Virus record (IMG/VR): IMGVR_UViG_3300035703_000061
Location: 1-64,000 of that record
From: a virus
DNA: 64,000 nt
Strand: one strand, 5' to 3'
Shown: piece by piece, positions 4,388 through 21,671 of the stretch
Layout: each line of letters starts with the position of its first letter
Position numbering within the stretch: the stretch's first letter is position 1
Program-made: the position numbers and the translations under genes
The notes under the pieces: generated by a model
Told to the model about the DNA's origin: nothing
The model's input: only the letters and a program-made list of their open reading frames with translations
Database searches by the model: none

Positions 4388-5143
4388 ATGCCTCGTCCTG
4401 AGATTGAGTTTGCTACGCCTGAAGAAGAAGAAGCTTATGCAAGAAATGCTTTAGCGAAGGCGGGAGTACCAATCACGCAATATGAAGCCATTCGAGAACA
4501 CAAATCACATGGCGGCAACCGTGGTGCCGGCATTTATACCAAAGAAATGCTTGGCGTTAGGCGATGGATGGTGCAAGAGCTTCTCGCCGCAAAAATGAGC
4601 AATCGTCAGATTGCGAATGTTCTAAAACTAAGCAAAGAAACAGTTAATGGTGATCGCCACTTCAATAGGGATCTCTATACGCAAGAAATTCTAAAGAATC
4701 AAGATACGCACAGAGCGCGTCTCTTAAAAGAACAAATGGAGCTAAAAGACTTAGCTCTTCGTAGCTTTGAAACCAGTAAGCGCAAGAAAACAGTGACCAT
4801 CATGGACGGAGGTGCCGATGGTGGGAAGGAGATGGTGAAGATCGAAGAAAGCGCTGGCGACGCATCGTTCCTTAACGTGGCCAAGAACTCCTTGGTGGAG
4901 CAAGCGAAACTGCTTGGTCTCAATGAAATTAAGCAAGTGGAGAACCAGGACACGTCCTACAGGAAGTTCCTGAAAGATTTGTCTTCCACTATTGAAAAAG
5001 AGAAGGAAGCCAAGGCTACGGAAGAGCGCAGGGGCAATTCTCTGCTTGCGTCCGCTGAGACCATTAGTTTCGATGCGGAGCCAGAAAATGAGCCACTTCC
5101 TGACGCCATGCCTTTACAAACAATTAACGAAGACGACTATTGA
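4388..5143 (+). CDS. probable terminase small subunit (HTH protein)
   Basis: HTH (MSNRQIANVLKLSKETVNGD), then helical hairpin and GDASFL...EQAKLLGL motif typical of HTH-type small terminases. Confidence 0.6.
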   Translation: MPRPEIEFATPEEEEAYARNALAKAGVPITQYEAIREHKSHGGNRGAGIYTKEMLGVRRWMVQELLAAKMSNRQIANVLKLSKETVNGDRHFNRDLYTQEILKNQDTHRARLLKEQMELKDLALRSFETSKRKKTVTIMDGGADGGKEMVKIEESAGDASFLNVAKNSLVEQAKLLGLNEIKQVENQDTSYRKFLKDLSSTIEKEKEAKATEERRGNSLLASAETISFDAEPENEPLPDAMPLQTINEDDY

Positions 5144-7773: not shown

Positions 7774-8035
7774 ATATCTAAACTCCCACCCACTGCTCAA
7801 GCGGTAATCAACGCGGCCATGAAGGATGCTTACGGGCGACCTTCAACTTATTTCTATTCTCGACTGGCTACCGCCTTTCGCGCTGCTGTCGATGAAGTGG
7901 CTCCAGAAAAAAACCATTGAAGACATCGACTACGTGCATCAAAACTACGTTGATGGGTATAGGGATGCTCTTTACGAGATCCTAATTATTGCTAATGAGC
8001 TTGAACTTGTAAGCATTTCCGACACGTTGCATTGA
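7774..8035 (+). pseudogene. disrupted paralogue of the preceding gene
   Basis: ATA in place of ATG, then SKLPPTAQAVINAA...LATAFRAAVDEVAP; similarity continues in another frame after the A7 run at 7907-7913 (...ILIIANELE). Confidence 0.7.
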
Positions 8036-8163
8036 CGTGTTAAACATTCCGGAATTTCCGGACAGTTAAGCCAAGCCTCAGCTAGCGAGCCTTCGCCTAG
8101 CATTTGTTTAATTATCAGGATTTCTAATAAACGCTATTTATTGGGATTCTTGATAAAGCCCTA

Positions 8164-8322
8164 TTACGGGGCTTTTTTCTTTGCCCACGTAGCGTCACCA
8201 GGCAATGGTTCAAGGCCTACATTCCACGTATCAAAATCATCTTCATTACGCGGATCGTACATTTCTCCACTTGCCATCCATCGCTTAAGCCTTTCTTTTT
8301 CCTGCTCTACAGAAAGCTTCAT
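8164..8322 (-). CDS. hypothetical 52-aa protein (not in ORF track)
   Basis: Translated by hand: MKLSVEQEKERLKRWMASGEMYDPRNEDDFDTW...; TATGCT -10 at 8348-8343. Confidence 0.6.
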   Translation of the reverse strand: MKLSVEQEKERLKRWMASGEMYDPRNEDDFDTWNVGLEPLPGDATWAKKKAP

Positions 8323-8351
8323 AACAATCTCCTAGCCCTTTAAGCATAGGC

Positions 8352-8561
8352 AAAAGAAAGGGGGCCTAAAGCCCCCTTTCTCTTGTGACTTCCGATGAGA
8401 CCTTTGCTCTCAAAGCTTCTAGAGAGGGTGATGCGCCTCGCAGGAGACCATGCAAAACTCCTTGGCTAGATCGTTCGATCTTCGCCCGCATCACCAGCCC
8501 CGTCCACCCTTACGGCTCGCCCGGAGACGAGAGCAGCAATTAAGCCGCTAGGACCAACCAC
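8352..8561 (-). ncRNA. putative stand-alone structured ncRNA (~210 nt), family unknown
   Basis: Extended -10 TGnTATGAT (8576-8568), nested stems with cUCCGg and GUAA tetraloops, 5'/3' closing stem, terminator 8382-8352, no credible ORF. Confidence 0.7.
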
Positions 8562-8675
8562 TGCAAAATCATAACACCTTGTGGCTTGCTCGGCACTAAG
8601 CGCTCATTTCATGGCACAATGGGCATTGCCTTGTCGGAGACGGCATGGCCCTCGCTAGTTCTTTCGTACTAATTG

Positions 8676-9023
8676 ATGAAACGTCTTTTTCTTTCTCTTC
8701 TGCTGCTTTGCCCCTTACAAGCGCAAGCAGCTCTTGAATGTGGCTATGCCTCGCATTATGGCGTGGGGGATTTTTACCATGGCAGGCGCACTGCCAGCGG
8801 CTCCACGTTCGATGCTTATTCCCTTACTGCTGCTCATCCCTGGCTTCCATTTGGCACGCGACTGCGTGTGAAGAACCGTAACAATGGAAAGTCAGTGACA
8901 GTGACAGTCGTTGATCGCGGCCCATACTACGGAGGCCGAATCTTGGATTTGTCCTACGGCAGCTTCTCTCGTATTGCTTCCCCTTCTCAAGGCGAAGCTT
9001 CCATCTGCATCTCAAGACTATGA
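8676..9023 (+). CDS. rlpA: RlpA-family (DPBB) lytic transglycosylase-like protein with signal peptide
   Basis: ASHYG...GRRTASG...TAAHPWLPFGT...VVDRGPY...ILDLS motifs; N-terminal signal peptide. Confidence 0.9.
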   Translation: MKRLFLSLLLLCPLQAQAALECGYASHYGVGDFYHGRRTASGSTFDAYSLTAAHPWLPFGTRLRVKNRNNGKSVTVTVVDRGPYYGGRILDLSYGSFSRIASPSQGEASICISRL

Positions 9024-9208
9024 AAGACGCAACTTCATTCCTGCTGGTAAGCCTTGTCATTGGACTCGGCGCATTTGCCATTGTCGCCTCTCCTAACGTG
9101 ACGGCCAACAAGGAAGGACTTGACAAGTGTCTGCAGCTCCATCCCGAACGCTACTGTCGCATTGCCAATGGCTTCCCCGTGGCAACGCTTGACAGCCAGA
9201 CCAAATAG
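9020..9208 (+). CDS. small membrane-anchored protein
   Basis: ATGA coupling; N-terminal hydrophobic helix; C-x8-C. Confidence 0.65.
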   Translation: MKDATSFLLVSLVIGLGAFAIVASPNVTANKEGLDKCLQLHPERYCRIANGFPVATLDSQTK

Positions 9209-21413: not shown

Positions 21414-21651
21414 GAAGGCGAGTAAGCATGATCACGAAGCAGACAAAGTGGCGCTCATCCGCACGTTCATCTTTGCATCGTATTTAATCACCAACATTGC
21501 CATCGTTGCTAACGCTTGGCGCCATTGGGAGAAGCAGCCATCTGCTTGCGAACAAGCATTAAAAAGGGGGAGCTTAAGCCCCCAATGCCCTCGGTGGGAT
21601 TTGAACCCACATGAAGAAAATTCTTCTACGGATTTTAAGTCCGTTGCATAA
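21367..21651 (+). CDS. small phage membrane protein
   Basis: WRIWAKALGEKA...EADKVALIRT...RHW; the tail runs antisense into the tRNA. Confidence 0.65.
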   Translation: MSRKNAWRIWAKALGEKASKHDHEADKVALIRTFIFASYLITNIAIVANAWRHWEKQPSACEQALKRGSLSPQCPRWDLNPHEENSSTDFKSVA

Positions 21652-21671
21652 ACCAGTTCTGCTACGAGGGC
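21586..21671 (-). tRNA. tRNA-Leu (anticodon TAA)
   Basis: Acceptor GCCCTCG/CGAGGGC+A, anticodon arm ACGGA-CTTAAAA-TCCGT, long variable arm, GTGGG-TTCAAAT-CCCAC; terminator at 21583-21559. Confidence 0.95.

What the first reader, a model, noticed from the sequence alone, without database searches (positions are those of the whole stretch)
8352..8576. Stand-alone ~210-nt multi-junction ncRNA with its own promoter and terminator
Seen on the minus strand: TGnTATGAT, then GUGGUU...AGUCAC closing the whole molecule. Domain 1 (GUCC/GGAC) encloses three hairpins: AGCGGC/GCUGCU, CUCGUC-UCCG-GGCGAG and CC-GUAA-GG. Domain 2 contains GGUGAUGCG/CGCAUCACC enclosing two further hairpins, plus CUCUC/GAGAG. 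A strong terminator follows. There are many G-U pairs, UNCG and GNRA tetraloops, and no ORF. I see no tRNA, tmRNA, RNase P, SRP or hammerhead signature. Inference: a phage-encoded structured RNA (ribozyme, protein sponge or RNP scaffold), possibly a new class.
Basis: partly seen in the sequence, partly recalled or inferred. Interest (0 to 1): 0.8.

Follow-up and report, generated by a model that had tools for sequence, protein, structure and literature searches.

The report
New folded RNA gene of cyanophages
A virus of estuarine and freshwater Synechococcus carries a stand-alone gene for a roughly 210-base, intricately folded non-coding RNA that matches no catalogued RNA family and keeps its fold in every relative of phage S-CBS4 found; its function is still unknown.

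Summary
On the minus strand, 8562-8352, lies a discrete RNA gene. It has an extended -10 box (TGTTATGAT, 8576-8568), a 179-nt multi-branched core closed by a 5'/3' helix, and an intrinsic terminator.

I found 62 distinct homologues. All lie in uncultured relatives of Synechococcus siphovirus S-CBS4, or in S-CBS4 itself, where the locus is unannotated. Across them 98% of the cells are base-paired and 41 of 57 pairs show compensatory changes. Controls with slid partners reach 42-48%.

Promoter and terminator are kept in essentially all copies. There is one copy per genome. No ORF is conserved.

Rfam 15 gives no hit; manA, T-box, tmRNA, RNase P, 6S and Y RNA were all covered by those searches.

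I correct the fold in two ways. The proposed GUCC/GGAC closure is isoenergetic with an alternative, UCC/GGA plus GA/UC, that makes a five-way junction.

The RNA is always followed, after its terminator, by a conserved 52-aa ORF.

Function is untested. My best guess is a trans-acting RNA that works through its fold, as a protein-binding scaffold or decoy.

This scan had already met the same family on another genome (e1-6096618).

The parts
8568..8576 (-). Extended -10 promoter box TGTTATGAT (TGnTAnnnT); inferred transcription start at A8562
   Evidence: Read. The motif TGnTAnnnT ends 5-6 nt before RNA nucleotide 1 in 36 of 37 distinct homologues. The start site is inferred, not mapped.
8384..8562 (-). 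179-nt structured core of the RNA (RNA nucleotide n = window 8563 - n)
   Evidence: Covariance-model matches of 190-225 bits. 57 base pairs, 41 with compensatory changes in 62 distinct sequences.
8385..8561 (-). P1 closing helix: 8561-8556 with 8390-8385. A GG bulge follows at 8555-8554.
   Evidence: Five of six pairs have changes on both sides and 100% of cells are paired.
8391..8553 (-). P1b UCC (8553-8551) with GGA (8393-8391).
   Evidence: All bases are invariant in 62 sequences. The two pairings are isoenergetic. Unresolved.
8532..8549 (-). P2 hairpin (6 bp, loop UUAAUU)
   Evidence: Four of six pairs are compensatory. The loop becomes a GAAA tetraloop in one clade.
8516..8531 (-). P3 hairpin (6 bp, UNCG-type loop UCCG; larger loops in other clades)
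   Evidence: Three pairs are compensatory and 100% of cells are paired.
8508..8515 (-). P4 mini-hairpin CC-GUAA-GG. The invariant junction GUGGAC follows at 8507-8502.
   Evidence: The stem is invariant. The loop is GUAA, GUGA, GCAA or GCGA, always GNRA.
8394..8504 (-). P5: GA (8504-8503) with UC (8395-8394), a C/A mismatch, then GGGGCU (8501-8496) with GGUCUC (8402-8397). It encloses domain 2.
   Evidence: Six of eight pairs are compensatory and 96% of cells are paired.
8427..8495 (-). P6, a 9-bp helix (8495-8487 with 8435-8427), enclosing P6a (8486-8464) and P6b (8461-8443)
   Evidence: P6 has 7 of 9 pairs compensatory and P6a has 8 of 8.
8447..8457 (-). P6b loop of 11 nt with CAUG (8452-8449), kept in 35 of 37 homologues
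   Evidence: Alignment. CAUG is absent in L065 and L045.
8407..8426 (-). P7 hairpin CUCUC/GAGAG; longer and branched in other clades
   Evidence: All five pairs are compensatory and 91% of cells are paired. Length is variable.
8352..8383 (-). Intrinsic terminator (GC stem, U tract). The A-rich 5' flank makes it read as a terminator on both strands.
   Evidence: Scan. A hairpin plus U tract lies right after P1 in all 37 homologues, with different stem sequences.
8164..8322 (-). Conserved 52-aa ORF (MKLSVEQEKE...) with AGGAG at 8333-8329, 30 nt after the terminator. It is followed by its own terminator at 8175-8155.
   Evidence: tblastn finds it downstream on the same strand in all S-CBS4-like loci that have enough flank. 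No Pfam, PHROG or Atlas match. A link to the RNA is inferred from position only.
8676..9023 (+). Divergently transcribed RlpA-like (DPBB_1) lipoprotein gene; a neighbour, not shown to be functionally linked
   Evidence: Pfam DPBB_1, E = 5.6e-22. It lies upstream in all S-CBS4-like loci but is absent from the divergent L045/L070 locus.

Best explanation
Shown: this is a stand-alone gene for a stable, highly structured non-coding RNA. The core is 179 nt and the RNA is about 210 nt with its terminator. It belongs to S-CBS4-like cyanosiphoviruses.

Inferred: host RNA polymerase starts at an extended -10 promoter and stops at a strong intrinsic terminator directly after the closing helix. This releases an RNA with almost no single-stranded sequence.

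The fold has three parts:
- A closing helix.
- A junction that bears three short hairpins plus P5. Its unpaired and flanking nucleotides (GGUCCU, GCCG-GNRA-GG-GUGGAC, AUCGGA) are invariant.
- A more variable second domain.

Inferred mechanism: the RNA acts in trans through its three-dimensional shape, not through long antisense pairing. Most likely it is a binding platform (scaffold or decoy) for a host or phage protein. The invariant junction would be the recognition surface. The 52-aa protein encoded just past the terminator is one candidate partner.

I put the reality of the RNA gene at about 0.97. The protein-binding mechanism is a guess at about 0.35-0.4. The confidence given below refers to the mechanism.
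For: Structure: 98% of cells are paired and 41 of 57 pairs are compensatory in 62 distinct sequences. No shuffle of 500 reaches this, and slid controls give 42-48%. An independent RNAalifold run gives the same pairs.

Transcription unit: TGnTAnnnT lies at a fixed distance in 36 of 37 homologues, and a terminator follows P1 in all of them.

Conservation: there is one copy per genome. The RNA is present in every S-CBS4-like locus that carries the neighbouring gene and has enough flank. It is also kept in a divergent phage contig (L045/L070) whose flanking genes differ.

Argument for action through the fold:
- The junction nucleotides are invariant, whereas helices and most loops drift.
- There is no free seed region. 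The phage genome has no excess of sites complementary to the only long conserved loop: 39 matches found against 36 expected.

The promoter-RNA-terminator-small ORF layout is kept in all S-CBS4-like loci.

Contigs from three metatranscriptome libraries cover the gene. This is compatible with expression but does not prove it.
Against: No partner protein is identified. The 52-aa ORF product is acidic overall and has no known RNA-binding family. No TROVE/Ro or reverse transcriptase gene is present in the phage. No known protein-binding RNA motif was recognised by eye; this was not a formal test. Transcript ends, abundance and timing were not measured, because the metatranscriptome data are contigs and may contain DNA. 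A ligand-sensing or catalytic role fits the invariant junction equally well.
Confidence: 0.38

Rival explanations
1. It is a cis-acting leader (riboswitch-like or attenuator). The folded core senses a signal and sets how much transcription passes the terminator into the 52-aa ORF.
For: The RNA, the terminator and the ORF lie on one strand in that order in all S-CBS4-like loci. In the window's clade only 30 nt separate the terminator from the ATG, and I saw no convincing separate promoter. A multi-way junction with invariant nucleotides is typical of aptamers.
Against: P1 and the terminator do not overlap, and I found no alternative antiterminator pairing. Terminator stems change freely without matching change in the core. 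In the S-CBS4 clade a good sigma-70-like promoter (TTGATA, 17 nt, TATACA) sits between the terminator and the ORF. The divergent L045/L070 copy has a different downstream gene. No riboswitch family matches.
Confidence: 0.15
2. It is one half of an RNA-protein pair laid out like a type III toxin-antitoxin locus. The RNA is made in excess because of the terminator, and it binds and controls the small protein encoded downstream.
For: The conserved order is promoter, RNA, terminator, small ORF. The module is transcribed against the flanking gene run and has terminators on both sides.
Against: The RNA has no tandem repeats. The protein has 52 aa, is acidic and matches no nuclease or toxin family. 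The divergent homologue keeps the RNA without this ORF.
Confidence: 0.12
3. It is a base-pairing regulator. The 11-nt P6b loop, with its conserved CAUG, kisses a host mRNA (for example a start-codon region) or another copy of the same RNA.
For: CAUG is kept in 35 of 37 homologues, in an exposed loop. CAUG is self-complementary, so it could pair with an AUG region or with itself.
Against: Only 4-6 loop bases are conserved and the flanks vary. There is no enrichment of complementary sites in the phage genome. Two homologues lack the motif, and the most divergent one has a differently built domain 2. Host targets could not be searched.
Confidence: 0.12
4. It is a ribozyme or an RNA-only assembly, with the invariant junction as an active site or an oligomer interface.
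For: The branched fold is complex, with invariant junction nucleotides and a conserved GNRA loop.
Against: No known self-cleaving or RNase P-like family matches. No covarying pseudoknot or tertiary pair was detected. The P2 loop palindrome is not conserved.
Confidence: 0.1
5. It is not a functional RNA. The pairing is a chance or DNA-level feature of an intergenic spacer.
For: None beyond the lack of direct transcript mapping.
Against: There is massive compensatory variation. Promoter and terminator are conserved at fixed positions. The stretch is at least as conserved as the neighbouring genes.
Confidence: 0.02

Closest known systems
Orphan structured ncRNAs found by comparative genomics (raiA, ROOL, GOLLD, OLE; Rfam)
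   Same: Stand-alone RNA with many covarying helices and conserved junctions. No known function. Partly phage-borne (ROOL, GOLLD).
   Different: No sequence or structure match to any of them. It is much smaller than ROOL, GOLLD and OLE. It is restricted to one lineage of cyanosiphoviruses.
manA (RF01745) and wcaG (RF01761) RNA motifs of cyanophages (PMC2864571)
   Same: Multi-stem RNAs of roughly 100-200 nt carried by cyanophages.
   Different: Those motifs lie in 5' UTRs of T4-like myoviruses and marine metagenomes (PMC2864571). The manA model finds nothing in this genome even at E <= 10. This RNA ends in its own terminator.
Type III toxin-antitoxin loci (ToxIN type; from my own knowledge)
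   Same: The order is promoter, RNA, intrinsic terminator, protein gene.
   Different: The RNA has no tandem repeats. The downstream protein is tiny and acidic and has no family.
phi29 packaging RNA (pRNA; from my own knowledge)
   Same: A phage-encoded branched RNA of about 170 nt, made from its own promoter, that works as a protein-binding scaffold.
   Different: No similarity was found. This phage has a standard portal and capsid module. No complementary loop pair was found.
Bacterial Y RNAs (YrlA) with Ro/Rsr
   Same: A 5'/3' closing stem with a conserved bulge, and a modular body.
   Different: No TROVE gene in the phage. No Y RNA family hit. The helix sequence differs.
T-box leaders (UGGN bulge pairs with the tRNA NCCA end; PMC7778990)
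   Same: An invariant UGGA lies in the junction, and a terminator follows the RNA.
   Different: No T-box model hit. The motif lies about 110 nt from the terminator. There is no Stem I or specifier, and no aminoacyl-tRNA synthetase gene downstream. A four-base match is expected by chance.

Membership tests
Any Rfam 15 family | Covariance-model score at or above the family's gathering threshold | tested here: not met
   In gathering mode on the whole window only tRNA-Leu is found, elsewhere in the window. In E-value mode (E <= 10) on 8000-9000 and on six homologous loci only terminator-driven hits of 14-27 bits appear.
manA RNA motif (RF01745) | Match to the manA covariance model (gathering score 55.2 bits) | tested here: not met
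   No match at E <= 10 in the whole 74.5-kb genome.
manA RNA motif (RF01745) | Position in the 5' UTR of a metabolic or photosynthesis gene | tested here: not met
   Its own terminator follows the RNA. The downstream gene is a 52-aa ORF of no family.
tRNA / tmRNA | Cloverleaf or tRNA-like domain recognised by ARAGORN or Rfam | tested here: not met
   ARAGORN finds only tRNA-Leu(UAA) at 21586-21671. No tmRNA hit.
Y RNA / YrlA-Ro module | A Ro (TROVE) protein gene in the same genome | tested here: not met
   PF05731 finds nothing in the phage genome, while the control genomes respond. The host genome was not testable.
Riboswitch with terminator expression platform | Aptamer strand shared with, or competing against, the terminator stem | tested here: not met
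   P1 ends 1-10 nt before the terminator. No alternative pairing appears in the MFE or by eye. Terminator stems vary independently of the core.
Riboswitch with terminator expression platform | Ligand binding | not testable with these tools
   Needs in-line probing or ITC.
Type III toxin-antitoxin | Tandem RNA repeats upstream of a terminator and an endoribonuclease toxin gene | tested here: not met
   The core is a single copy without repeats. The downstream ORF has no family.
Retron / DGR RNA | A reverse transcriptase gene in the element | tested here: not met
   PF00078 finds nothing in the genome.
Stand-alone bacterial-type sRNA gene (generic kind) | Own promoter, own intrinsic terminator and no conserved ORF, all conserved among relatives | tested here: met
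   The transcript itself was not mapped.
Conserved structured RNA (generic kind) | Compensatory base changes well above controls | tested here: met
   41 of 57 pairs are compensatory and 98% of cells are paired, against 42-48% in slid controls and 0 of 500 shuffles.

The most novel reading that the evidence does not exclude
The invariant multi-way junction is an active site, not a passive protein-binding surface. It could be a ligand pocket, a catalytic centre, or a site that captures an RNA 3' end. The two isoenergetic pairings of GGUCC (with GGAC or with the GGA of AUCGGA) would then be a built-in conformational switch. This would make it a new functional class of phage RNA that senses or modifies something in the infected cyanobacterium.
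Probability: 0.15. Interest if true: 0.85.

Novelty: new variant of a known kind. Interest (0 to 1): 0.6.

Why it matters
Complex, strongly conserved RNA folds without a known job are rare, and they have repeatedly led to new biochemistry such as riboswitches, ribozymes and RNA cages.

This one is compact (179 nt) and has a clear covariation-supported secondary structure. It has a sharply defined transcription unit. A cultured model exists: phage S-CBS4 on Synechococcus sp. CB0101. Deletion, pull-down and structure probing are therefore directly feasible.

It would also add a regulatory or structural RNA to cyanosiphoviruses. This is a widespread freshwater and estuarine phage group whose early genes are almost all of unknown function. 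In S-CBS4 itself the locus is an unannotated 416-bp gap.

Tried and rejected
Known RNA families:
- Rfam in gathering and E-value modes gave only terminator-like noise, including weak PrrB/RsmZ and ctRNA hits.
- manA model: nothing.
- ARAGORN: nothing at the locus.

Partner genes in the phage:
- TROVE/Ro gene: none.
- Reverse transcriptase gene: none.

Pairing and tertiary structure:
- Antisense targets of the P6b loop in the phage genome are at chance level.
- A mutual-information search for pseudoknots or tertiary pairs gave only phylogenetic correlations, plus one extra closing pair of P6b.
- Loop-loop kissing ideas (P2 UUAA palindrome, P6b with P7) were rejected because the loops are not conserved across clades.

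Host genomes:
- I could not run my model on cyanobacterial genomes. The genome search draws no relatives for a virus record and needs a genome handle.
- The only host-side test is an exact-pattern scan of 185,579 species genomes. It hit one mis-binned phage contig (L045, the same DNA as IMG/VR L070) and one chance site in an actinobacterial coding region (L046).

Pattern scans: twenty of the 75 metagenome pattern hits were chance matches in GC-rich DNA.

Small ORF: no Pfam, PHROG or ESM Atlas lead.

Literature:
- Nineteen papers mention S-CBS4; none appears, from titles and abstracts, to describe an RNA at this locus.
- The IMG/VR-wide catalogue of 10,006 candidate structured RNAs (PMC10690425) may contain it. 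Its supplementary tables are not held, so I could not check.

Metatranscriptomes:
- Run X19 laid nothing.
- X15, X17 and X18 are contigs that cannot show ends or strand. Stretches without cover mean nothing.

Scripts: searches did not run (exit -1, no output). They held typed pieces of sequence. I redid the step with coordinates only.

The first paper search was badly framed and useless.

Full report
**What is there**

The window is part of a 74,485-bp IMG/VR virus record. Its only cultured relative is Synechococcus siphovirus S-CBS4, whose major capsid protein is 86% identical. All other phage records are below 35%.

The minus strand at 8576-8352 reads as follows:
- An extended -10 box, TGTTATGAT.
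- Six bases later, a 179-nt stretch that is almost fully self-paired.
- A GC-rich hairpin with a U tract.

Nothing but a tRNA-Leu elsewhere in the window reaches an Rfam gathering score. A sensitive scan of 8000-9000 returns only low-scoring hits that sit on the terminator. ARAGORN sees no tRNA or tmRNA here. The single-sequence fold is better than shuffles (z = -3.5). On its own that is weak evidence.

**Homologues**

A blastn search of GenBank phages found one partial match. It lies in S-CBS4, inside a 416-bp gap with no annotation, between gp093 ('lipoprotein precursor') and gp092. The neighbours are the same as in the window.

The pairwise alignment already shows compensatory changes in three helices.

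More copies came from three kinds of search:
- Exact and degenerate pattern scans of IMG/VR.
- A protein-anchored search with the neighbouring lipoprotein.
- One pattern scan of metagenome contigs.

I built a first covariance model from the window and a near-identical contig, using a structure written by coordinates. With it I aligned all copies. I then built a second model from 37 distinct sequences.

The second model matches 55 of the 75 metagenome pattern hits. The other 20 are chance hits in GC-rich DNA. It gives one copy in the window's own genome.

A pattern scan of one genome for each of 185,579 prokaryote species found only two sites:
- A phage contig binned into a MAG (L045, the same DNA as IMG/VR L070). 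This is a divergent true homologue.
- A chance site.

**Structure**

On 76 matches (62 distinct sequences), 98.0% of cells form standard pairs and 41 of 57 pairs change on both sides. None of 500 column shuffles reaches any of the five measures. Sliding the 3' partners by 1-3 columns drops pairing to 42-48% (the 37-sequence set is).

That alignment was fitted to the model and therefore leans towards it. Two checks are less dependent on the model:
- RNAalifold run de novo returns the same 57 pairs, 41 of them compensatory.
- A plain MAFFT alignment of 11 sequences gave 19 compensatory pairs before any model existed.

The helices, in RNA numbering (n = 8563 minus the window coordinate):

| Helix | Positions | Notes |
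|---|---|---|
| P1 | 2-7 / 173-178 | closing helix |
| bulge | 8-9 | GG |
| P1b | 10-12 / 170-172 | |
| P2 | 14-31 | hairpin |
| P3 | 32-47 | hairpin |
| P4 | 48-55 | hairpin; loop always GNRA |
| P5 | 59-60 / 168-169 and 62-67 / 161-166 | |
| P6 | 68-76 / 128-136 | encloses P6a and P6b |
| P6a | 77-99 | |
| P6b | 102-120 | |
| P7 | 137-156 | hairpin |

They differ by at most 1.3 kcal/mol in every homologue. The data cannot choose between them, and the RNA may use both. With the second pairing the first domain is a five-way junction.

The invariant nucleotides cluster at this junction: GGUCCU, GCCG-GNRA-GG-GUGGAC and AUCGGA. Domain 2 is more plastic, and in the divergent L045 copy it is built differently. 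I found no covarying pseudoknot.

**Transcription unit**

In 36 of 37 distinct homologues TGnTAnnnT ends 5-6 nt before the first modelled base. The divergent copy has TG directly before TATGCT. All copies have a hairpin plus U tract just after P1, with stems that differ between clades. The longest ATG-ORF over the locus ranges from 27 to 64 aa and is not conserved.

Contigs from three metatranscriptome libraries of three studies cover the RNA gene. In one library the two contigs lie wholly inside it. Contigs cannot show ends or strand, and such libraries can hold DNA, so this only shows compatibility with expression.

**Surroundings**

The RNA and a 52-aa ORF (8322-8164, RBS AGGAG, own terminator at 8175-8155) run against the flanking plus-strand genes.

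- Upstream, transcribed divergently, is an RlpA-like DPBB lipoprotein gene.
- tblastn over all loci shows the order 'lipoprotein, divergent; RNA; terminator; small ORF' in every S-CBS4-like copy with enough flank.
- L045/L070 keeps the RNA and the next small membrane protein, but has neither the lipoprotein nor this ORF.
- The small protein has no Pfam, PHROG or Atlas relative.
- In the S-CBS4 clade a sigma-70-like promoter lies between the terminator and the ORF. In the window's clade only 30 nt lie there.
- The phage has no Ro/TROVE or reverse transcriptase gene.

**What it most likely does**

Shown: it is a conserved, independently transcribed, densely folded RNA.

Inferred: it acts in trans through its shape. 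The reasons are these:
- The conserved bases are junction bases, not a free seed.
- The only long conserved loop (P6b, with CAUG in 35 of 37 copies) has no excess of complementary sites in the phage genome.
- No antiterminator competes with the terminator.

I rank the functions as follows.

| Function | Probability |
|---|---|
| Protein-binding scaffold or decoy, with the junction as recognition surface | about 0.38 |
| Read-through control of the small ORF | 0.15 |
| Type III TA-like RNA-protein pair with that ORF | 0.12 |
| Loop-mediated base pairing | 0.12 |
| Ribozyme or RNA-only assembly | 0.10 |

None of these is tested.

**Comparison with known families and novelty**

No Rfam 15 family matches, and the manA model finds nothing. 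The library holds no paper describing an RNA in S-CBS4. A catalogue of 10,006 unnamed candidates from IMG/VR may include it, but I could not check its tables.

Within this scan the same family was already reported from another genome (e1-6096618, with the same verdict). My results agree with these notes. They add the corrected P5 and junction model, the metagenome set of 62 sequences, the divergent L045 copy and the link to the small ORF.

It is a new RNA family of an already known kind: an orphan phage-encoded structured ncRNA.

**Limits**

- The transcript is not mapped.
- The junction pairing is unresolved.

Noticed in passing
window 8164-8322 (-) and 8155-8175: A conserved 52-aa acidic ORF (MKLSVEQEKERLKRW...) of no known family always follows the RNA's terminator. 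It has its own terminator, which reads as one on both strands. S-CBS4 gp092 is its homologue.
   Followed up: partly
L034, L043, L044, L055: about 10-100 nt downstream of the RNA terminator: Some relatives carry an inserted pair of hairpins between the terminator and the small ORF. Their loops, TTGCA and TGCAA, are complementary to each other. A conserved GCTAGCTAGACTC...ATACA box follows. This may be a small mobile or regulatory insert, or the ORF's own promoter region.
   Followed up: no
window 4388-5143 (+): This is the homologue of S-CBS4 gp086, which is annotated 'Rnase E' (PHROG 645). In Pfam it shows only weak HTH (GerE, HTH_38) matches, so the RNase E label looks doubtful.
   Followed up: partly
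window 8352-8383: The RNA's terminator has an A-rich 5' flank matching its U tract. It therefore also reads as a terminator for plus-strand transcription coming from the upstream early genes.
   Followed up: no
window 21586-21671 (-): tRNA-Leu(UAA) gene. It is the only Rfam or ARAGORN hit in the window.
   Followed up: no
L141 / L060 (contigs of 108,927 and 106,734 bp): Two contigs that carry the RNA are about 30 kb longer than the 69-79-kb genomes of the other relatives. They could be concatemer assemblies, larger relatives, or prophages with host flanks.
   Followed up: no
window 8443-8461 (-): The P6b hairpin looks like a translation start site: AAGGAG, a 6-nt spacer, then AUG in the loop. 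The frame opened by that AUG is not conserved. This may be coincidence or start-site mimicry.
   Followed up: partly
window 9020-9208 (+) and L070 8213-8380: A small membrane protein with a conserved LHPERxCRIxNGF motif stays next to the RNA even in the divergent phage that lacks the RlpA-like gene.
   Followed up: no
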